This document shows positions 7,559-17,941 of a stretch of DNA of 34,781 nucleotides, piece after piece. The notes below the pieces were generated by a model. It did not search any database. It worked only from the letters and a program-made list of their open reading frames with translations, and was not told where the DNA came from. How positions within the stretch are numbered: position 1 is the first letter of the stretch; each line of letters begins with the position of its first letter. Source of the stretch: a virus (Duplodnaviria > Heunggongvirae > Uroviricota > Caudoviricetes); the IMG/VR virus record IMGVR_UViG_2880361019_000004, positions 1 to 34,781 of that record; one strand, 5' to 3'. Both the position numbers and the translations under genes were made by a program.

Positions 7559-8631
7559 GTGATTTCTCCCACCGTCAGCAGCTCACTGTCTCCCGCCTGA
7601 ACTGACGTCAGCGGACTGCGCACTTCAAAATCCTCCAGATTTTTCACCCCCGCCACAGCACGCCAGAAAGACGACGGCAGAACCAGACCGCCGGGCCGGG
7701 ATTCGTTGTATAACAGGTCGGTCAGCGCCTGTTTTACGGCCGCCTGATTCTCCGGTGTTTTCGGGATGATCCTGATGCTGAAGGGCACCGGCTTATTGGT
7801 CAGTTTAAACACGGTCACCGTCGGCCCCAGAGGCTGTCCGACAGGCTGGCCGGTCGCCGGATCATCATGACTGCGGATATAATCCGCCACCCGCTGAACA
7901 TCACCGTCACCGGGGAAAATATCCGGGTTATTATCCTGAACAAACGTTACCCCCACGCTGCCCGCCTGCGGCCATTCCGGGCGGCACCATGCCCGCGTCA
8001 CGCCCGGCACTTCACGCGCCCAGCGTTCAAAATCATACTGCGTGCCGCCGGACGGTGGATTCTGCACCCGGAAAACCAGACGGGAAAGCAGCTCCGGCAC
8101 GGTTTCCACATCCGCACCACCGGTGATCCCCGTTCCTGTCACCGTGGCCGTCTGGTTGATCCCCGCCTGCGGTGTGATAAATGTCAGTTTTGTCCCTGCC
8201 GGGGCATTCCCCGCACGACCGGCACTTTCGGCTTCCACACTGACATTCAGCGTACCGGCCTTACCGGTCAGTGAGGTGGTGATACGGTAAACCACGCCAT
8301 CACTTCGCTGGAGAAGCACACCTTCCTTGATCCCCGCATCCGTGGTCAGCATCAGCTGAACCGGCCCGTCCCCCCGAGAGGCAGGCTTACGCATGACGCC
8401 CCAGAATGCACAGTGTTTCAGCAGTTCGGCTTCATCGGCTTCGGTCGGGATGATCTGACGCGCAATCCAGGCCAGATGCTCATGCTCCTGAGCAGATAAC
8501 CCTGCCTGAGCGTAAGCAATGGCATTCAGGGTGGTTTCATTCACACCCGGCTGCGAGCCGGGCAGGCGCTGGCTGATATCCTGCTGTGTCTGCGTGATTA
8601 ACTGTGCCAGCGGTAAAGGCTGATAAGGCAT
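7549..8631 (-). CDS. Baseplate J-like protein (Mu gp47-like)
   Basis: 360-aa ORF in the conserved baseplate position, start overlapping the upstream stop. Confidence 0.7.
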   Translation of the reverse strand: MPYQPLPLAQLITQTQQDISQRLPGSQPGVNETTLNAIAYAQAGLSAQEHEHLAWIARQIIPTEADEAELLKHCAFWGVMRKPASRGDGPVQLMLTTDAGIKEGVLLQRSDGVVYRITTSLTGKAGTLNVSVEAESAGRAGNAPAGTKLTFITPQAGINQTATVTGTGITGGADVETVPELLSRLVFRVQNPPSGGTQYDFERWAREVPGVTRAWCRPEWPQAGSVGVTFVQDNNPDIFPGDGDVQRVADYIRSHDDPATGQPVGQPLGPTVTVFKLTNKPVPFSIRIIPKTPENQAAVKQALTDLLYNESRPGGLVLPSSFWRAVAGVKNLEDFEVRSPLTSVQAGDSELLTVGEITWL

Positions 8632-9068
8632 TACTCCCCCTTAAGATCAGCATAAAAAATCATGGGCCTCACTGAACCATCAGGCAGGGTTATGCGCACC
8701 GAAAGCGCCAGCCGCGCGTGCCCCACACGTTCTGCATGACAGACCACGGATGACGCCACGCCATCCTGACTGAGCCAGCCCAGCGCCTCATCCGCATAGG
8801 CACGGGCACGGCTTATCACCGAGGCCAGCGTTTTTTCCCGGCGGAGAAGCCACAGACGGGAGCCAATGGGACGCGGGCGAAAACTGTCTCCCCACCATCC
8901 CCGGCGGTCACGCGTACCGTCAGGGATTTCATCCGATGCCAGCGCCCGGCGGTCAGTAAACAGCGAAATCAGAACGGCCGTCAGCAGACTGTCATCCGTC
9001 AGCAGGTCGGCACCGTTCAGTTGCAGCGAACCGCACCCCTGATCCCATACAATTGCAATATCAGCCAT
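8631..9068 (-). CDS. Mu gp46-like baseplate protein
   Basis: Start set at MADIAIVWD, where ATG overlaps the upstream stop in an ATGGCTGA junction; the longer 193-aa form would overlap gp45 by 150 nt. Confidence 0.6.
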   Translation of the reverse strand: MADIAIVWDQGCGSLQLNGADLLTDDSLLTAVLISLFTDRRALASDEIPDGTRDRRGWWGDSFRPRPIGSRLWLLRREKTLASVISRARAYADEALGWLSQDGVASSVVCHAERVGHARLALSVRITLPDGSVRPMIFYADLKGE

Positions 9069-9675
9069 TCTCCGGCGCTCCTGTCTTACTGCCTTTGCCG
9101 TTATCCTGATGCACATGGCCGGAATAGGTGATCCCGGCAATAACGGCATCAGACATCGTGAACAGCCCGTCTGATTTACCTGTACCATCAAGCACGAAAT
9201 TACCCTTAACATGCAGGTTTTTATCCACCGTCACATTGCCCGTAAAGGTGGCCTCCGGCGTATCCACCCGCATCCCCTCATCGGCGTAAATCTCCAGCAT
9301 TTTGCATGTCACAATAATGCGACCATCCTTTGTTAACCGTATCCGGTGCCCCTCATGGTGATACACCCCCGTATCTCCGGCTGTGAGTCCGGTCGGGCGG
9401 CTGCGCCGGTCTTCCACCACAAGCACCACAGTCTGATCCCGCTGTCCGCCCAGACAGGCAAAAAAGGTTTCCGCACCCGGCAGGGGAACGCTGATCTGCC
9501 CGTACTGCTGGGGACGCTCCACATCATCAAAGGTTTCGCCGTCCATGCCGGTGAGCTGCACATTCTGCATTTTCAGTTCGTCATGTGTGCCGGTCAGAAC
9601 GCCCCGGCCAAACAACAGGCGAATACCGCGCGTTACCGGGGCAATCAGGCGGCTGAACACTTCATCATTCATCAA
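9061..9675 (-). CDS. Baseplate assembly protein V / spike (Mu gp45-like)
   Basis: 204-aa ORF in the conserved position after the P-like gene. Confidence 0.65.
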   Translation of the reverse strand: MMNDEVFSRLIAPVTRGIRLLFGRGVLTGTHDELKMQNVQLTGMDGETFDDVERPQQYGQISVPLPGAETFFACLGGQRDQTVVLVVEDRRSRPTGLTAGDTGVYHHEGHRIRLTKDGRIIVTCKMLEIYADEGMRVDTPEATFTGNVTVDKNLHVKGNFVLDGTGKSDGLFTMSDAVIAGITYSGHVHQDNGKGSKTGAPENG

Positions 9676-10789
9676 AGCTGATCCCCTGTTTTTTCATCTG
9701 CTGGCGAATAAAGGCATCAACATCGTCACCGGAACCACCCCGGCCCTTACTGTCCGGCTCTGCCGGAACGATAAAGCCGTCACGCGGTGCCAGTACCAGC
9801 CGGGTGACTTCCCCGTTATGTTCATCAAGTAAAAACTCCACCTGACAGACCAGCAGTTCAGTCTGTTCTATACCGAAACGCAGGGCTGAAACACCGGTCA
9901 GCAGATTGACATCCCATAACCGGCCATCATCCCGGAACCAGCCACGCACGGTGGCAGAAAACCGTTCTGAACGGGCAATCGCACGGCGCATTTCACGCAG
10001 GGCACGCTGCCGTGCACCGGTGGTGTCTGTCTGTTGATCGGCGAGGATGATTTTCGGCCGGTAGCGGCCGATCTGCTCATCACTGATGACGCCCACAGGT
10101 GCTGCCAGACGGGCGGCGGATTCGCTGTCTCCCCGTTTGCCACCACCGCGCCCGTGTCCCCGGACACGGTATTCGCTGTATCGTCCTCGCCAGTCCGTGT
10201 TGTAATCGGCATCAAGCAGGTTATCTCCCAGCACCAGTCTGTCCGTCTGCTGGCTTCCTGCCTGGGTGAACACCAGATCGCCGTCAGCATTACTGGTCAC
10301 CAGCACCCCGCGATGCCGGGCAGCACGGGTCAGCGCATCCGCCACGGTTTCTGAGTTTTCCAGCGTAAAAGAGCTGAAGGGGCGTGCAGCCGTGTCGTCG
10401 TTAACATGCCAGCGCACGGCTATCCCGAAGGGCGCACATAAATCTGCGGCAATCTGTGCCAGCGTCCGGTTGCGCCACTGGCTGCCGGGATGGATGGCGG
10501 CACAGTCCACCAGGTCGCCGGTTTTATCCCGACCGCTGATGCTGATCTGATGACGGGTTGCACTGATCCGCTGACTGACCTGATCCAGCCAGCCACTGAT
10601 GACCGTCTGCCCGTTAATTCTGAGCGTCAGGGACTGACCGGTTCGCAGGGCTGAGGGGATGCGCTCACCGGGCAGCATCAGCCCCAGTTCAAACGACCCG
10701 GCCAGATGCTCCAGCGAGCGACGGACGCTGACCGTCAGCCAGCCGGAAAAAATACTGCCACCGATATACAGTTCAATCCTGCTGCTCAC
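9665..10789 (-). CDS. Mu P-like tail protein (gpD-like baseplate hub)
   Basis: 374-aa ORF following the N-like gene with overlapping start. Confidence 0.7.
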   Translation of the reverse strand: MSSRIELYIGGSIFSGWLTVSVRRSLEHLAGSFELGLMLPGERIPSALRTGQSLTLRINGQTVISGWLDQVSQRISATRHQISISGRDKTGDLVDCAAIHPGSQWRNRTLAQIAADLCAPFGIAVRWHVNDDTAARPFSSFTLENSETVADALTRAARHRGVLVTSNADGDLVFTQAGSQQTDRLVLGDNLLDADYNTDWRGRYSEYRVRGHGRGGGKRGDSESAARLAAPVGVISDEQIGRYRPKIILADQQTDTTGARQRALREMRRAIARSERFSATVRGWFRDDGRLWDVNLLTGVSALRFGIEQTELLVCQVEFLLDEHNGEVTRLVLAPRDGFIVPAEPDSKGRGGSGDDVDAFIRQQMKKQGISFDE

Positions 10790-12131
10790 TGATCACCTCC
10801 ACGCTGCGGCCACCCGGAACAAAAACCGGATCGGGGATATTGTTTCTGCGGACAAAATACTGCCAGCGACTGCTGTTGCCGGTGGCACGGTACAGCGTGA
10901 CCAGTGCCGGTTCGGTGGTGCGAACCATGACCTGAAAAGCACCGGGAAGATGCACGCTCCGTGTGGTTAAATCTTCTGTCAGCGCAAGCCCTGCATCACG
11001 TAATGCAAGGGCAGTCCCGGTATAGCCCTGTGCGGACAGATCCAGCACCTGTTGTTCCATGGCATCGCTCAAATCCCGGTTGATACGCTGCACATCAGCA
11101 GAACTTTCCAGCCAGGCCAGTCCGCCCGAACGGTCAGTATCCTGAACGTGCGTCGTATTCTGCCGGATGACCTGATCCAGCAGTTTTCCGAGCGTCTGTG
11201 CCTGCGACACCAGGGTTGCACTCTGCATCACGCTCCGCAGCAGACGGATATTTTTCTGTGCCGCAGGCGTCAGGCCAATCAGGCGCTGTGGATCATCCTG
11301 TTCGCTGAGGGTGTAACGCAGGGAGGAAAGTGTGCGGTACAGCTGCGGCATGGCCTGCTCTGCCATGCTGTCACGGTTTGTGGTCAGGCTGCCGGACGGC
11401 GTTCCGGCTTTTCCGGTCAGAGACAGGGAAGGATCGCCGGGCAGCCCGGTCAGCACGGCAAACATTCCGGCCAGCGATTCAGCCATGCGACGGGGCGCAT
11501 TAATCAGGGCGGCGGCATTGCCTTTCAGGGCAGTAAAACTGGCCGTAAAGGCACTGATATCCTGCACAATCCCCATCCCCGAAACGGCATTCTCCAGTGC
11601 ATCAATCTTATCGCTGATGGTGTCGGTCATGGCCTGTACATCATGCAGACCGTCTGAAATCACCGTCCAGCCGTCTGAAAGCGTGTTAAACAGCTGATTC
11701 ATTGCTGAGCCGCTTTTCTGCTCCAGCGCAGCTGCCGTATCTTCTGCCACCGCAGGGGCGGTATCGTCACTGGCGGGGATCACGTTGATCGTGAACTCAA
11801 CCGTTCCCTGCTCGCTGGCGTTATAACGGCTTTCAAAGCTGTTTATCAGCACGTTTAACGTGCCGTAATCCGGGTGCATCAGTTCACCGGCACCGGGTGC
11901 ACGCAGCGCATCACGCAGGCGGCTTCGCTGTGTCTGAAGATCGTCTCCGGTAACCAGAACCGTGAATGTGAACTCCGGGAGTTTTGGCCCCAGATCATCC
12001 GCACCGCCGCTTTCACGCAGTGGGTATTCACGGCGCACAATGTTACGTCCGCCCCGTTCCCGCTGCTCCTGATAAACCAGGAACGGTACGCCACGAAAGG
12101 AGCCACGCCCCGGCGTGTCAGTAGAGGCCAT
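10773..12131 (-). CDS. Mu N-like DNA circularisation protein
   Basis: 452-aa ORF immediately downstream of the tape-measure gene. Confidence 0.65.
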   Translation of the reverse strand: MASTDTPGRGSFRGVPFLVYQEQRERGGRNIVRREYPLRESGGADDLGPKLPEFTFTVLVTGDDLQTQRSRLRDALRAPGAGELMHPDYGTLNVLINSFESRYNASEQGTVEFTINVIPASDDTAPAVAEDTAAALEQKSGSAMNQLFNTLSDGWTVISDGLHDVQAMTDTISDKIDALENAVSGMGIVQDISAFTASFTALKGNAAALINAPRRMAESLAGMFAVLTGLPGDPSLSLTGKAGTPSGSLTTNRDSMAEQAMPQLYRTLSSLRYTLSEQDDPQRLIGLTPAAQKNIRLLRSVMQSATLVSQAQTLGKLLDQVIRQNTTHVQDTDRSGGLAWLESSADVQRINRDLSDAMEQQVLDLSAQGYTGTALALRDAGLALTEDLTTRSVHLPGAFQVMVRTTEPALVTLYRATGNSSRWQYFVRRNNIPDPVFVPGGRSVEVISEQQD

Positions 12132-14182
12132 AGTTCCCTCCGTTCCAGACGTTCACATCCAGGCCATGCTGTGCGGTATCATCCACATCAATACTGCGCG
12201 CCCGCCAGCCTTCAGGGGCCACAAGCTCCACCCGTGCGGCGGTTTTCGCGGTGGCCTGTCCGCCGTTTTCGTCACTGCCGCCACGCAGTTTCTGCCAGGC
12301 CTGCGTCAGCCAGCCCCCCAGATAATCACCGAGATAGCTGCCCACCGTGGAACCAATGGCAACCCCGACCGGACCAGCAGCCGCCCCCAGCGCGCCACCG
12401 GCGATACTTCCGGCAAGGGAACCCACGGCACCGGCTTTATCGGCTGCACTGGCGCTGCTGTCCAGCAGTACAGGAGCCGCCATGGCACCGGCCCACAGGG
12501 CACCACCACCCAGCCGACCGGCACCACGGAACAGCCCGGCAAAACGCCCCAGCCCCATGCGGTTTCCGGCCGCCGTTAGCAGACCACCGGCACGGCTCAT
12601 CATACGACCGAAGAAGCCCTGTTTACCGGCACTCTCCGCCAGTTGCTCACCGGCAGTCACGACGGTCGTGACACCCCGTCCACGTCCGGGGCCGCGTTTT
12701 TTACGGCCGCGCACGGTTTTGCCGTCACCGCTGACCACCACATCCCCGCCACCTGAGGCCAGGCCACCCGCAGGCCAGTTGGTGACCAGCACGGGCTGAA
12801 CGGCAGCCGGATTTACCCCGGTAAGGAAATTCAGGAACCGGCCAGCGCGTCCGGGCTGCGTTCCCAGTACAGTGGTCTGCGGTTTGCGGTTTGCGGAAGG
12901 GCGACGTCAGCACGGAGGTCATCGCCATGCCATAGCGTAAGGGGGTTGCGCCGAGACGTAATGCCCCCGTCCCCGCAAACCTGAGCACCTTCAGCGCACG
13001 GGAGGCGAGATACATATACATCAGGTACTTTGCGGCGGTCTGCGCACCCTGACCAATGCGATCCAGCGCATCGCCATAACCGGCGTCGCGCAGTGCCTGA
13101 AGCGTTTCCCTGACTTTCTGAATGACCCGGTAAAAGCCGGTCGCAGCGTCTCTGGCATACTCAAATCCCTGATTCAGAGCTGAGGCCGTCTGTGTGGCCA
13201 GCTTATCCTGTAAGCCGCTTTTCTGTGCCGCATCGGCATAATCCAGGAAGCCTTTCAGGCTCTTTTTCAGGCTGTCAAACGGTCCCTTTGCCATCACCTC
13301 GCGGGCAAATCCGTCCCAGACGTCGCCCATCATGGACGTCATTCCCGTCCAGGAATTCATGGCGTTTTTCTGGGCACCTTTTGCCTGTTCGGCCATCACC
13401 TGAAATAACAGGCGAATGCTGTCCGGCCCCAGTTTTCCTTTTTCGCCTTTCTCACGGATGATCTTCTGGTTTACGCCCAGCTTATCGGCCAGTAACTGGT
13501 AAACGTTAATCCCGTATCCGGTCAGAATATTGGCGTCCGCTGCCTGGATACTCTGGCGGGCAAACATCTGTTTGAGTTGCAGGGACGCACCCTGTGCATC
13601 TGACAGTGACCAGCCGTGATAGCCGCCCTGATCCTGAAGCATGGTAATAAAGCGACGGGCTTCCCTGTCACTCATGCCAAACCCGCGACTGGAGGCGTAT
13701 TCCTGCATAACCCCCGCCAGCCCCCAGGTGGTGTCTTTGGCGTTCTGTACTGCCCAGGCTTTCACTGCTTCCGTTTTTGCCGTATCGCCATGATTAATGG
13801 CGTTGAGACGCAGAATATAGTTCTCCATCTCTGCGGCCGGGCGGATAAAGGCTTTATTAAAACCGTAGACCGCAGCCCCTCCCGCCAGCATCCCGTAAAG
13901 GTTGCTTATCCGCCCGATGGTGCCGGTAATGCTGCCCTGCAGGCGGTCAAAATCTGACGTTACCGTGCGGATGCTGCCACGAACACCGGCAAGCGTTCGC
14001 TGCATACGGGAGCCGACAAGTTCTGTTTCCTGACCGGCCCGGCGGGCTGCATTTCCAAGACCACCCAGGCCTGTCCTGCCGGAACGGGAGAACGCCCCCA
14101 GCTCCTGTGACCACTGGCGGGATTTGGCGGAAATATTGCCGAGTAAATCGACAATCAGGGAGGCTTTCAGGTTTTTTGCCAT
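12118..14182 (-). pseudogene. Tail tape-measure gene, frameshifted
   Basis: Two overlapping ORFs (12725-14182 and 12118-12792) in different frames; a 7-bp tandem duplication at 12878-12896 lies at the frame switch and removing one copy restores a single ORF of about 690 codons. Confidence 0.75.
12878..12896. repeat. 7-bp tandem duplication (tgcggtt, 2.7 copies) at the tape-measure frameshift
   Basis: Read directly: tgcggtt tgcggtt tgcgg. Confidence 0.85.
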
Positions 14183-14185
14183 GGG

Positions 14186-14380
14186 TTACTGCTTCGTTCT
14201 GAGAATTTTTTCGGTCTGTCGGCAGTGCCGGTAAAGCTGCGATAAAGGGAGGTTAAGCGCCCACTCCGGGCCGCTTTTTGTCACCATCCCCAGCACAATT
14301 GCGGCTTCTTCAATCTGATCCCGGCACTGCATCTGGTCGCCCCCGTTCAGCGACCAGCTTTCCTGCCATCGCGGAATCAA
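14186..14380 (-). CDS. Possible +1-frame extension of the tail assembly chaperone
   Basis: Open frame overlapping the 3' end of the chaperone ORF and ending 3 nt before the tape-measure start; no own ATG (track start is TTG). Confidence 0.3.
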   Translation of the reverse strand: MIPRWQESWSLNGGDQMQCRDQIEEAAIVLGMVTKSGPEWALNLPLSQLYRHCRQTEKILRTKQ

Positions 14381-14789
14381 GCAGGCTTACCGCCGCCATC
14401 AGACGGGAGAGATCGCGCTCGCTGAGCTGTCCGATCTGACGCGGAGACAATGGCCCCTCAATCTGGCCAACAGCGGCAATCTGACGGCGCAGCAGTGCAA
14501 TGCCGCGCAGTGCCGGCGAGGCTATCAGAACCGGGCCGCCATTTCGGGTTTCCATAAGACGCTCGGCCTCGGTTTCCGCGTCAATGCTGTCTTTCGCCGT
14601 CAGTTCGCGGAAGGTGACGCGGTATTCACGGGATTCCCCGAACGGCAGACCGTCGAGCAGATCCACATAGCCGTTCGCCAGCTGTTCAGCCAGCCCGGCG
14701 GTGCGGGGATCGCCGTCTTCAAGTGCATCCCGGATAGCCTCCATCACGGCCTCGTCAGAAACCGCCGTTTTTTTCTTACGTGTGGTCAT
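14310..14789 (-). CDS. Tail assembly chaperone (Mu gp41-like)
   Basis: 159-aa acidic ORF between tail tube and tape measure. Confidence 0.55.
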   Translation of the reverse strand: MTTRKKKTAVSDEAVMEAIRDALEDGDPRTAGLAEQLANGYVDLLDGLPFGESREYRVTFRELTAKDSIDAETEAERLMETRNGGPVLIASPALRGIALLRRQIAAVGQIEGPLSPRQIGQLSERDLSRLMAAVSLLDSAMAGKLVAERGRPDAVPGSD

Positions 14790-14803
14790 TGCATTTTTCC
14801 TGA

Positions 14804-15169
14804 TTACTGGACACGGGTACTGGTGGCGCTGGCGAACTTCGCGGAGATATCACCGCCACCGTCAAGCGAGGCCGGTTCACTGCTCCAGGCCTTCGTCATC
14901 ATGTGGACTTCACCGGTATCGGCCACGAACTCAATCGTGACCGCAGTCCAGGTGTTGATTTCATCGGCAGCCGGTGAACCTTCTCCGCCAGCCGGAAATT
15001 TACAGTCCAGCGTCGCCTCACGGGGTTTCTCACGATAGCCATAGACTTTCGCGCCTTTCACCACTTCACGCTCAAAGCCGGACGGGGAGAACGTGGCTCC
15101 CTCAAGGGTGGCGTACTCCTGTCCGTTCACACGGATGGTGGCCGTGCCCTGATGCTGTTTTCCGCTCAT
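14804..15169 (-). CDS. Tail tube protein (Mu M-like)
   Basis: 121-aa ORF immediately downstream of the sheath gene. Confidence 0.7.
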   Translation of the reverse strand: MSGKQHQGTATIRVNGQEYATLEGATFSPSGFEREVVKGAKVYGYREKPREATLDCKFPAGGEGSPAADEINTWTAVTIEFVADTGEVHMMTKAWSSEPASLDGGGDISAKFASATSTRVQ

Positions 15170-15177
15170 GCCTTACC

Positions 15178-16680
15178 TCACAAAATGAAACGGATCTGCG
15201 CGGCCATGAAGCGGAACTGGTTAACCAGATCCGGTGTACACATCACATCCAGACGGTTACGGTCTTTTGTGTTGCGCTCCACGAGCAGATTCTTTTTAAA
15301 GGTGTCCAGATTTTCGACCAGCCCGAGTTCCACCCATTCTTCCCCCAGTGCAATCAGCTGGAGCGTCATAATCTCCGGCGTCACGATATTCTGACCGGGC
15401 CGGACGGGAGTACCGTTATCGGCCAGTTTGTGGCGCGGGAAACGCTGCGTGATAAAGGTGCGCAGGGAATAACGCAGATATGACAGGGTGTAGATGGTTT
15501 CTACATCCAGATAGCTGGGATCGCTTTCGCCGTATGCATTCTGACGGTACATCGTCACCTGACGTTCAATCTGCACCACATCAGCGGCCGCAACGGTCAC
15601 CGTGGACATGCCGGTATAAAGCAGGCTGTTTCGCTCTTCCCGCGTCAGACGATCCGGTGCTTCAGGTGCCATACGGGCAGGCAGCGCCAGTGTCTGTAAT
15701 GGTCGGGCCGGATCCGTTGACAGGGAGGGCGCACAGACCGCACAAATGGAGGCAGCCCAGACATAATCCGGCTCTGGTGCTTTAGGAATAGAAGTGCAGG
15801 TAAACAGGAAGTCATTACGGGATTCACCAAAACTGGTTGCCGTACCGAAGGTGCCGGTATGCGCCATCCAGACCATACCGTCCGACATTTTTACCGGTCC
15901 CCAGCGTTTCAGCAGTTCATCCGCCAGAATTTTGAGATTTGCCGCATCCTTATAGGGCATGACGATGTAGTTGTACTGACGATTCCCCATCCCTGAGACG
16001 CTACGGGTGATATCGGGGTTTGTTGCCTTCTGTGTTGGCGCGACGAGCTCCAGCGTAAGACCGGCCGGTGTAGTTTCACCGTCATAATAGTTCACCCGTA
16101 AATCATGAGCTGAGCATTCACCGATAAAGCGGGCGTTAACCCCCATGCTGCCTTTAAGTCCTTCAGCATTATCACCACTGACTTCAGCTGCGATAGCAGT
16201 GAATGGCGCATCAGTGTCAGCGTTAATGACCTTAGCCAGCTCTTCCACAAGCTCTTTACCTTTTTTCCCCTTACTGACGGGCAGGAGGTAACGGCGACCG
16301 CCGATGTAAACACTTAACACCCCGTCTGCCAATGCTGTTCCAATGATATTCATCACGCATGCCCTGGACTGACCTGTTCCAGCCCCCTGTGCAATGGCAT
16401 ATAACTCTGTGTCAGGGTTAATGGCGATAAATTCCTCTACCATCAGTGCAATCATGGAACCTCGCCCCCAGAGTTCTCTTGCTTGTGAAGCTCGGGTAAT
16501 ACGTACTGGTACATCAAGCTGACCGCGCCCCTGAATGGTGGTGTCTTTCATTGCAGCCTGACCAAACAACAGTACCGCCTGACGCTGTGGTGGAGTGCCG
16601 GTCACGGCCATTGAATTATTGATTTCAATCTGTACCAGCGGAATGCGATTGTTATCGCCGATATAATCAAAGTTAATCAT
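15178..16680 (-). CDS. Contractile tail sheath protein (Mu L-like)
   Basis: 500-aa ORF with sheath-protein character in the conserved position. Confidence 0.8.
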   Translation of the reverse strand: MINFDYIGDNNRIPLVQIEINNSMAVTGTPPQRQAVLLFGQAAMKDTTIQGRGQLDVPVRITRASQARELWGRGSMIALMVEEFIAINPDTELYAIAQGAGTGQSRACVMNIIGTALADGVLSVYIGGRRYLLPVSKGKKGKELVEELAKVINADTDAPFTAIAAEVSGDNAEGLKGSMGVNARFIGECSAHDLRVNYYDGETTPAGLTLELVAPTQKATNPDITRSVSGMGNRQYNYIVMPYKDAANLKILADELLKRWGPVKMSDGMVWMAHTGTFGTATSFGESRNDFLFTCTSIPKAPEPDYVWAASICAVCAPSLSTDPARPLQTLALPARMAPEAPDRLTREERNSLLYTGMSTVTVAAADVVQIERQVTMYRQNAYGESDPSYLDVETIYTLSYLRYSLRTFITQRFPRHKLADNGTPVRPGQNIVTPEIMTLQLIALGEEWVELGLVENLDTFKKNLLVERNTKDRNRLDVMCTPDLVNQFRFMAAQIRFIL

Positions 16681-16958
16681 CAGGACGTCCCCTTATCTGA
16701 TGCTGCGGTTTTTTCAGCCACCGCCGCAGTTTTTTCTGCTGCCGCTCCCGCTGGTTTTGCCGCCGCGCCGGTATTACCTGTTGTGGCAGCCGGGGCAGGC
16801 TCCTCCGTTTTATCCACCACAATGACGTCACCATCATTAAGACGGCGGCACCAGAACGGAGTGAAGGGTTTCTCTTCACCGTCCTGTGAGAGCGGAGTCA
16901 TCGTGTCGGGATCGCGAATCAGGCATCCCGGCGCAGGTTTAATAAAAATGGTTGTCAT
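16680..16958 (-). CDS. Small Ala-rich phage protein (DUF2635-like)
   Basis: 92-aa ORF with Ala/Lys-rich low-complexity tail, upstream of sheath. Confidence 0.45.
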   Translation of the reverse strand: MTTIFIKPAPGCLIRDPDTMTPLSQDGEEKPFTPFWCRRLNDGDVIVVDKTEEPAPAATTGNTGAAAKPAGAAAEKTAAVAEKTAASDKGTS

Positions 16959-16961
16959 CTG

Positions 16962-17525
16962 TTATTCCTCTGACGGTCCGGCGTTTTCACCGGCGGCAGT
17001 TGCACCAGGCAGACGGATGTGTGCCTTAAACTCCGGCGTGCCTTCCGGTTCGGTAAAGGTTTCGTAATGGCGCAGGAAATCATCCAGCGAGCTGATATCC
17101 GTCAGCGGGTCGATCATTTCCTCGCATGAGAAATACAGGGCGTACATCACGGCACCGCTGCCTGCCTGCGTTTCGGTGTAACCGTTGACCGCCTTTTCAA
17201 AGTAAAGCGGTGAGGTTTTTTCTGCTCTGAAGCCGTCCAGCAAGGTAATCAGGCGGGCCACAATCTGATAAAGCCCGGGACGGCTGACCTCACGGCCATT
17301 GAGCATGTCGCCGATGACGTAGAACACCCAGTGACTGACCAGACGCCCACGGGTACGCCCTTCACCGGCACCCAGCCAGGCAACATAGATAGCCGGGGCG
17401 TTAATCAGCATGGTACGCAGTACGCTGTCGCTCCAGTCGCCGGGATGTGTGTCAACAGACACCAGTTCATTCCCGAAATACTCACGGATACGGGCGATGT
17501 ACGCTTGCTCGGTTTCCGTAATCAT
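16962..17525 (-). CDS. Mu gp37-like head-tail joining protein
   Basis: 187-aa ORF in the conserved position. Confidence 0.55.
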   Translation of the reverse strand: MITETEQAYIARIREYFGNELVSVDTHPGDWSDSVLRTMLINAPAIYVAWLGAGEGRTRGRLVSHWVFYVIGDMLNGREVSRPGLYQIVARLITLLDGFRAEKTSPLYFEKAVNGYTETQAGSGAVMYALYFSCEEMIDPLTDISSLDDFLRHYETFTEPEGTPEFKAHIRLPGATAAGENAGPSEE

Positions 17526-17941
17526 ATAAAGCCCTTCTGGTTGCGCCCGAACACCGCCGCATCAGACTGCACCTGCGGTAAATCCCCGGATTCAGGGGCC
17601 GCACCGTCTGTATCCACGCCGACCGGCACGTTACCGTTCATGACATCTTTCAGCCAGGCCAGCGCCTCACGGTAACGGTCACGCGCCTGATCGGATGCCC
17701 GCTGATCGCACAGGTAATAAAAGGCAATCGTGCAGCAATGCTGAACAAGGACCGCCGGAACCACCGCCAGCGGCAGCGTGTAACGGGCAGACAGGTAACT
17801 GTCGATAAGGGCAGACGCGTCCGTCAGTGCCCGGTTCAGCTTGCGTGTGTCCGGCTCATCCGAACGGGGCACGGCCAGTAATGGCCTGAGCAAATCCTCG
17901 CGGTAACGTGCCCGCATATCGGTTTCGGTGGCGTAATTCAT
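17522..17941 (-). CDS. Mu gp36-like head completion protein (DUF1320-like)
   Basis: 139-aa ORF in the conserved position with overlapping stop/start. Confidence 0.55.
   Translation of the reverse strand: MNYATETDMRARYREDLLRPLLAVPRSDEPDTRKLNRALTDASALIDSYLSARYTLPLAVVPAVLVQHCCTIAFYYLCDQRASDQARDRYREALAWLKDVMNGNVPVGVDTDGAAPESGDLPQVQSDAAVFGRNQKGFI

What the first reader, a model, noticed from the sequence alone, without database searches (positions are those of the whole stretch)
12878..12896. Tape-measure gene broken by a 7-bp tandem duplication
The tape-measure reading frame splits exactly at tgcggtt tgcggtt tgcgg. Removing one 7-nt unit gives a continuous protein (…SPFRKPQTTVLGTQPGRAGRFLNFLTG…) joining the two partial ORFs. 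This is either a real inactivating slippage mutation in a decaying prophage or an assembly error.
Basis: seen in the sequence. Interest (0 to 1): 0.5.

Follow-up and report, generated by a model that had tools for sequence, protein, structure and literature searches.

The report
Frameshifted tape-measure gene, dead Mu-like prophage
A 7-base tandem duplication really does break the tail tape-measure gene of a Mu-like prophage in Escherichia albertii, but it is an ordinary inherited mutation in a prophage that is already crippled by insertion sequences and a large deletion.

Summary
Window 12878-12896 reads tgcggtt-tgcggtt-tgcgg, which is CCGCAAA-CCGCAAA-CCGCA on the coding (minus) strand. It splits a 685-codon tape-measure gene (14182..12118, minus strand) into a 485-aa piece and a 207-224-aa piece. 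Every orthologue examined has one CCGCAAA unit and an intact 685-aa frame: the full-length matches listed among 31 in complete E. coli genomes, 10 IMG/VR contigs and 7 further fetched records. The closest orthologue differs from the window only by these 7 bases and one substitution.

It is not an assembly error. The same duplication, always linked to the same neighbouring C>T change (P437L), occurs in six separate assemblies: CP034212.1, one draft genome and four assemblies of public read sets. Two of them differ from the window elsewhere by 1-3 bases. The host is E. albertii 2010C-3449 (CP034212.1).

The prophage is clearly decaying. An IS66-family element sits in the portal gene. An IS1-bounded deletion has removed the whole early region, including the transposase genes, together with the adjacent host genes nudI and ais.

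The mechanism is slipped-strand duplication between the CCGCA direct repeats already present in the ancestral sequence. This is ordinary pseudogene formation and of low interest.

The parts
12878..12896 (-). The 7-bp tandem duplication tract: CCGCAAA CCGCAAA CCGCA on the coding strand. Orthologues have CCGCAAA CCGCA.
   Evidence: Alignment to NZ_AP022811.1 shows a clean 7-nt gap at this point.
12725..14182 (-). 5' fragment of the tape-measure gene: a 485-aa product with 434 native residues followed by 51 out-of-frame residues and a TGA stop at 12727-12725.
   Evidence: Pfam TMP_3 matches residues 111-297.
12118..12792 (-). 3' fragment of the tape-measure gene, in the +1 frame relative to the 5' fragment. 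It gives 224 aa from the GTG at 12792, or 207 aa from the GTG at 12741 as called in public annotations. It encodes the Gly/Ala-rich C-terminal part.
   Evidence: Weak Gly-zipper match below the curated cut-off. Annotated 'hypothetical protein [Escherichia albertii]'.
12866..12866 (-). Linked substitution C>T on the coding strand (CCG>CTG, P437L). It is present in every assembly that has the duplication and absent from the 23 single-copy loci matched by the pattern scan.
   Evidence: An intact 685-aa allele with L437 exists in E. albertii (EFL5796937.1).
14186..14789 (-). Context: the gp41 tail-assembly chaperone (14789..14310) and its 64-codon extension ORF (14380..14186) in the +1/-2 frame, immediately upstream of the tape-measure gene.
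   Evidence: A -2 frameshift is reported for phage Mu (PMC5009743).
22567..25020 (+). IS66-family insertion of 2,454 bp with terminal inverted repeats GTAAGCGT/ACGCTTAC and an 8-bp target duplication TCATCAGG (22559-22566 and 25021-25028). It interrupts the Mu-type portal gene after codon 508 of 529.
32660..33427 (-). IS1 (768 bp) at the truncated left edge of the prophage. Host DNA (the ais-arnB spacer) starts at 33428. The prophage early region and 1.8 kb of host DNA (5' part of yfaZ, nudI, ais) are missing.
1..32659 (-). Mu-like prophage remnant. Gene order runs from the 32659 end to position 1: gemA/mor region, lysis genes, terminase and portal, MuF, protease, gpT capsid, tail sheath and tube, tape measure, baseplate gp43-48, tail fibre with Gin-type invertase, SASA/DUF6645 protein, Com, Mom.

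Best explanation
The window is CP034212.1:1013897-1048677, the chromosome of Escherichia albertii 2010C-3449. It holds the remnant of a Mu-like (transposable, myovirus-type) prophage inserted in yfaZ.

In its tape-measure gene, the ancestral sequence CCGCAAACCGCA contains the 5-nt direct repeat CCGCA at a 7-nt spacing. During replication the nascent strand slipped back by one register and one CCGCAAA unit was copied twice. The 7 extra bases shift the frame by +1 after codon 434. Translation then runs through 51 wrong codons and stops. The C-terminal 251 residues, including the Gly/Ala-rich hydrophobic part, are no longer joined to the N-terminal 434.

Shown here: the duplication is derived, real, and inherited by a small clade of isolates.

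Inferred from established knowledge of tape-measure proteins (lambda gpH, T4 gp29): one continuous polypeptide sets tail length and nucleates tube polymerisation on the baseplate hub. A split protein therefore cannot support tail assembly.

The element is dead regardless. An IS1-bounded deletion removed the repressor, transposase and early region, and an IS66-family element interrupts the portal gene. The duplication is thus one step of ordinary prophage decay under relaxed selection.
For: (1) Derived state. The listed full-length matches among 31 in complete E. coli genomes are 2,055-2,060 nt against the window's 2,065. Alignment to the three closest shows only the 7-nt insertion and one substitution specific to the window. 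23 loci matched by the pattern scan have one unit, including all 10 IMG/VR contigs. The intact 685-aa protein is recorded on at least 1,000 contigs.

(2) Real, not an artefact. The exact 485-aa frameshifted product is on 9 contigs. The duplication is present in CP034212.1, SRR1999998, SRR35304221, GCA_027564975.1, SRR9311802 and SRR30129656. L021 and L022 differ from the window by 1 and 3 substitutions elsewhere, so they are not the same consensus.

(3) Single origin. The duplication is always linked to T at 12866. The intact L437 allele exists in E. albertii.

(4) Slippage substrate. The CCGCA direct repeat flanks the unit in all orthologues.

(5) Host. The chromosomal flank is 88% identical to all E. 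coli genomes and 99.3-99.9% identical to AP014857.1. CP034212.1 is listed as E. albertii 2010C-3449, ST5390 (PMC10673567).

(6) Decay. There is an IS66-family insertion with a target-site duplication in the portal gene. IS1 abuts host DNA with loss of 1.8 kb of host sequence. No MuA, MuB or Gam is detectable in the window.
Against: No raw reads were inspected directly; the evidence is at the level of independent assemblies. Loss of function is inferred and was not measured. The 3' fragment keeps in-frame GTG starts, so separate expression of the C-terminal part cannot be excluded. Some of the six assemblies may be re-sequencings of the same strain: L006, L007 and L023 are identical to the window over their whole length.
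Confidence: 0.93

Rival explanations
1. Sequencing or assembly artefact: the genome really has one CCGCAAA unit and the extra copy is a consensus error.
For: A related long-read assembly (JE86-ST05, L002) does carry obvious single-base insertions in this same gene, and it is annotated 'frameshifted'. Such errors therefore do occur in this gene family.
Against: The identical 7-nt duplication occurs in six separate assemblies, including four Logan assemblies of other read sets and one draft genome. It is always linked to the same nearby SNP. A 7-nt unit duplication is not a typical homopolymer-type error.
Confidence: 0.02
2. Functional recoding or a two-part tape measure. Ribosomes shift +1 or -2 in the 185-nt overlap and make a near-full-length protein, or the two fragments work in trans, so the gene is not really inactivated.
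For: The frame needed (+1/-2) is the same kind that the Mu-type chaperone gene 1.4 kb upstream uses. The two frames overlap from about 12910 to 12725. The overlap includes a CCC-U site, and a G4 run lies within it near 12748. 'Correction' of indels by frameshifting is a known phenomenon (PMC5009743).
Against: The split is absent from all orthologues, so it is not conserved. No established slippery motif with a stimulator was seen in the overlap on manual reading of the sequence. The prophage lacks its early region and has an interrupted portal gene, so nothing selects for a working tail.
Confidence: 0.03
3. Phase-variable switch: the 7-nt repeat is a contingency locus that toggles tail production on and off.
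For: A tandem duplication flanked by 12 nt of self-homology can in principle be lost again by slippage, restoring the frame.
Against: Only two states are seen, and they sort by lineage. All six lineage members have two units with the linked SNP, and all others have one. Two to three units is far below the repeat numbers of known contingency loci. The element is otherwise defective.
Confidence: 0.02

Closest known systems
Phage Mu tape-measure protein (gp42) and its orthologues in E. coli/Shigella Mu-like prophages (e.g. WP_001107490.1)
   Same: The repaired protein differs from WP_001107490.1 at one residue in 685 (P437L). It has the same Pfam TMP_3 domain and the same position between the gp41 chaperone and gp43.
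   Different: Here the ORF is split after codon 434 by a 7-nt duplication.
Slipped-strand frameshift hotspots at short tandem repeats (classic example from my own knowledge: gain or loss of one CTGG unit in E. coli lacI, Farabaugh et al. 1978)
   Same: One repeat unit whose length is not a multiple of three is gained, at a site where the unit's first bases are already repeated directly after it.
   Different: There is no evidence that this site is a recurrent hotspot. The duplication has a single origin in one lineage. The other frameshift found in this gene (L019) is at a different site, a G run.
Defective (cryptic) prophages of enterobacteria decaying by IS insertion, deletion and point frameshifts
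   Same: Three independent lesions lie in one element: an IS66-family insertion, an IS1-bounded deletion of the early region and the tape-measure frameshift.
   Different: Nothing distinctive. The late region is otherwise 99.6% identical to intact relatives, so the decay is recent.
Programmed -2 frameshift of the Mu tail-assembly chaperone (Xu, Hendrix and Duda 2004, as cited in PMC5009743)
   Same: It lies in the same operon and requires the same frame relation (+1/-2).
   Different: That frameshift is conserved and lies in the chaperone gene at 14380-14310. The tape-measure break is lineage-specific and not conserved.

Membership tests
Phage tail tape-measure protein (Pfam TMP_3, Mu gp42 type) | Significant match to the family profile | tested here: met
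   PF20155 TMP_3 scores 66.5 bits against a cut-off of 41, over residues 111-297. Orthologues are annotated as tape measure protein.
Phage tail tape-measure protein (Pfam TMP_3, Mu gp42 type) | Position in the tail module, between the tail-assembly chaperone and the baseplate or hub genes | tested here: met
   The order is sheath, tube, Gp41_Mu, TMP, DNA_circ_N (gp43), gp44-48.
Phage tail tape-measure protein (Pfam TMP_3, Mu gp42 type) | One continuous reading frame spanning the whole ruler | tested here: not met
   The frame breaks after codon 434, giving a 485-aa ORF plus a 207-224-aa ORF. By this test it is a pseudogene of the family.
Slipped-strand tandem duplication (frameshift mutation) | Head-to-tail copies with no spacer, where the pre-existing sequence has a short direct repeat that allows misalignment | tested here: met
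   The ancestral CCGCAAACCGCA becomes CCGCAAACCGCAAACCGCA.
Slipped-strand tandem duplication (frameshift mutation) | Derived relative to outgroups, and heritable | tested here: met
   One unit in 23 loci matched by the pattern scan. Two units in six assemblies of one lineage, always with the linked SNP.
Programmed ribosomal frameshift | Frame break conserved among orthologues | tested here: not met
   All orthologues have a single uninterrupted frame.
Programmed ribosomal frameshift | Slippery motif plus stimulatory element in the overlap | tested here: inconclusive
   Manual reading of 12725-12910 found no established motif. No experimental or model-based test was run.
Phase-variable simple-sequence contingency locus | Repeat number varies among very close isolates or within populations | tested here: not met
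   All six lineage assemblies have two units. No other copy numbers were seen. Within-isolate read heterogeneity cannot be tested with these tools.
Mu-like transposable prophage | Mu-type morphogenesis, Com and Mom genes | tested here: met
   Portal_Mu, Phage_Mu_F, Mu-like_gpT, Gp36, Gp37, Gp41_Mu, Gp45, GP46, Gp48, Com and Mom are present.
Mu-like transposable prophage | DDE transposase MuA and the MuB ATPase | tested here: not met
   No tblastn match to MuA, MuB or Gam of a relative (L020) in the window. IS1 abuts host DNA where the early region should be. The element is therefore a remnant.

The most novel reading that the evidence does not exclude
The duplication does not fully silence the gene. 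Low-level +1/-2 ribosomal shifting in the 185-nt overlap, by the same ribosome behaviour that the Mu chaperone gene exploits, or slippage-mediated reversion, would yield occasional full-length tape-measure protein. The break would then act as a leaky or reversible attenuator rather than a knock-out.
Probability: 0.02. Interest if true: 0.35.

Novelty: already known. Interest (0 to 1): 0.07.

Why it matters
It matters little beyond annotation. The two ORFs (485 aa and 207 aa, the latter annotated 'hypothetical protein' in public records) should be annotated as one frameshifted tape-measure pseudogene. The prophage in E. albertii 2010C-3449 should be scored as defective: no transposase, an interrupted portal gene and a broken tape measure. 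The duplication together with the linked P437L change is a convenient lineage marker for this clade. It is also a clean textbook example of slipped-strand duplication between 5-nt direct repeats.

Tried and rejected
(1) Assembly error. Rejected after the exact frameshifted protein and the 19-nt tract were found in six separate assemblies.

(2) Recurrent hotspot. L019 also splits the gene into a 483-aa and a 207-aa piece, which at first suggested the same duplication had arisen twice. It is a different lesion (G4 to G5 at the position equivalent to window 12748) on a single-unit background.

(3) L020 joins gemA to the tape-measure gene 8 nt from the repeat. This is a 19-kb deletion at a GTAC microhomology in a proline-allele relative, unrelated to the duplication.

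(4) I first took the 385-aa ORF at 33624-34781 for an IS3-type transposase. Pfam and synteny show it is the host aminotransferase ArnB. That in turn exposed the IS1-bounded deletion.

(5) Looking up the 167-aa ORF at 32675-33178 to walk beyond the window returned only IS1 copies elsewhere.

The order of the three lesions therefore could not be resolved.

(7) A scan of the GTDB species-representative genomes for either allele found nothing.

(8) Structure prediction and the large protein-homology searches were not used. The orthologue comparison already settles the question.

Full report
**Observation.** On the + strand, window 12878-12896 reads tgcggtt tgcggtt tgcgg. The genes here lie on the minus strand, where the tract is CCGCAAA CCGCAAA CCGCA.
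- Tandem Repeats Finder reports the tract as 12874-12896, period 7.
- It is the only perfect array of period 5-10 with at least two units plus 5 nt in the 34.8-kb window. Simulated sequences with the same dinucleotide transitions contain 0.04 such arrays on average, and none of 300 had one of period 7.
- The upstream ORF (14182..12725) gives 485 aa. The downstream ORF (12792..12118) is in the +1 frame and gives 224 aa from its first GTG.

**What the gene is.**
- The N-terminal fragment matches Pfam TMP_3 (66.5 bits, cut-off 41).
- The gene lies between a Gp41_Mu tail-assembly chaperone and a DNA_circ_N (Mu gp43-type) protein, downstream of the sheath and tube genes and upstream of baseplate genes gp44-48.
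- RefSeq annotates the orthologues as 'tape measure protein'.

**Comparison with orthologues.**
- A megablast of the 2,065-nt region against 5,426 complete E. coli genomes found 31 full-length matches. Those listed span 2,055-2,060 nt.
- Alignment with the three closest (99.5-99.6% identity) shows that the window differs from NZ_AP022811.1 only by the 7-nt insertion and one C>T substitution 20 nt downstream (window 12866, P437L).
- All 10 IMG/VR contigs that match a pattern written to accept either allele have one unit.
- Among the fetched loci matched by the pattern scan, 23 have one unit with C at the linked site. Eight loci have two units with T; these represent six assemblies.
- The intact 685-aa protein WP_001107490.1 is recorded on at least 1,000 contigs. 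The intact protein carrying L437 is also on record, from E. albertii (EFL5796937.1).
- The two-unit state is therefore derived, and it arose on the L437 background.

**Real or artefact.**
- An exact-sequence look-up of the 485-aa frameshifted product found it on 9 contigs. A look-up of the 207-aa downstream product found more.
- The 19-nt tract is present in CP034212.1, in the draft genome GCA_027564975.1, and in Logan assemblies of SRR1999998, SRR35304221, SRR9311802 and SRR30129656.
- L021 and L022 differ from the window by 1 and 3 substitutions over 7.5 and 5.8 kb, so at least these are not the same consensus.

**Source and context.**
- The window is 100% identical to CP034212.1. That record is listed as the chromosome of Escherichia albertii 2010C-3449 (human, 2010, ST5390) in PMC10673567.
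- The chromosomal flank is only 88% identical to every E. coli genome, but 99.3-99.9% identical to AP014857.1.
- The element is a Mu-like prophage, with Portal_Mu, Mu F, gpT, Gp36/37/41/45/46/48, Com and Mom. It is inserted in yfaZ.

**The prophage is a remnant.**
- IS66 insertion. A 2,454-bp IS66-family element (22567-25020) has terminal inverted repeats GTAAGCGT/ACGCTTAC and an 8-bp target duplication TCATCAGG. It interrupts the portal gene after codon 508 of 529. Contig L006 ends 30 nt inside this element, which is consistent with the insertion being present in that read set too.
- IS1-bounded deletion. A 768-bp IS1 (32660-33427) directly abuts the host ais-arnB spacer. Compared with the uninterrupted locus in AP014857.1, 1.8 kb of host DNA is missing (5' part of yfaZ, nudI, ais), together with the entire prophage early region.
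- No MuA, MuB or Gam sequence is detectable in the window.
- Outside these lesions the late region is 99.6% identical to intact relatives, with no other frame-breaking indel. The decay is therefore recent.

**Mechanism.**
- Every orthologue has CCGCAAACCGCA, that is, CCGCA repeated directly at a 7-nt spacing. Slipped-strand mispairing of the nascent CCGCA on the upstream template copy duplicates one CCGCAAA unit.
- The 7-nt gain shifts the frame by +1 after codon 434. Fifty-one aberrant codons follow before a TGA at 12727-12725.
- The C-terminal 251 residues are cut off. This part includes the Gly/Ala-rich hydrophobic segment, which gives a weak Gly-zipper match.
- Loss of tail assembly is an inference from established work on lambda gpH and T4 gp29, where one continuous protein sets tail length. 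It was not tested here.

**Rivals.**
- Programmed or compensating frameshifting is not supported. The break is not conserved, and manual reading found no recognised slippery motif in the 185-nt overlap. Background +1/-2 shifting cannot be excluded.
- Phase variation is not supported. Copy number sorts strictly by lineage.

**Verdict.** This is an ordinary, lineage-specific pseudogenising mutation and is of low interest.

Noticed in passing
window 14186-14789 (-): The gp41 tail-assembly chaperone gene (14789..14310) is overlapped by a 64-codon ORF (14380..14186) in the +1/-2 frame that ends 4 nt before the tape-measure start. The overlap contains CGGGGGCGA (14345-14337). This fits the programmed -2 frameshift reported for phage Mu (PMC5009743).
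   Followed up: partly
window 22559-25028: An IS66-family element (three ORFs: 134, 115 and 512 aa) with an 8-bp target duplication TCATCAGG is inserted in the 3' end of the Mu-type portal gene. It replaces the last 21 codons with 40 IS-derived ones and separates the portal gene from the downstream late genes.
   Followed up: yes
window 32660-33427 and 33428-34781: IS1 directly abuts the host ais-arnB spacer. The prophage early region (repressor, MuA, MuB, Gam) and the host genes nudI and ais, plus the 5' part of yfaZ (1.8 kb in AP014857.1), are deleted. The 385-aa ORF at the window end is the host gene arnB, not a transposase.
   Followed up: yes
window 4501-6998: A Gin-type serine invertase (4501..5073, -) lies next to a tail-fibre gene (6117..6998, -) and an oppositely oriented tail-fibre assembly gene (5564..6085, +). 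This looks like a Mu G-segment-like invertible host-range switch. Relatives show it in the other orientation or rearranged (L017; the inverted match).
   Followed up: no
window 2361-4415 (-): A 684-aa protein with SASA (sialate O-acetylesterase-like) and DUF6645 domains lies between the invertase and the Com/Mom genes. It is conserved in all relatives. It is a possible surface-glycan-modifying cargo or tail-associated enzyme.
   Followed up: no
L019 9994 (equivalent to window 12748): In ERR11441553 the same tape-measure gene is broken by a different lesion, a 1-nt gain in a G run (G4 to G5). This yields a 483-aa and a 207-aa piece on a single-unit background with an intact portal gene. Whether it is real or a homopolymer error was not determined.
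   Followed up: partly
L020 9240-9270 (window 31893 joined to 12870): In SRR11585308 a 19-kb deletion joins gemA to tape-measure codon ~436 at a GTAC microhomology, only 8 nt from the repeat tract. It removes the lysis, head and most tail genes.
   Followed up: partly
L002 / L055 (NZ_AP022815.1): E. coli JE86-ST05 has two single-C insertions in the tape-measure gene and further frameshifts in neighbouring genes (MuF, baseplate, DUF6645). Its sister assembly JE86-ST02 is intact. The pattern is typical of long-read consensus errors rather than biology.
   Followed up: no
L022 and L023, both starting at window 14026: Two independent read-set assemblies that carry the duplication both break at the same position inside the 5' part of the tape-measure gene. 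This suggests a repeat or a second related prophage in those genomes.
   Followed up: no
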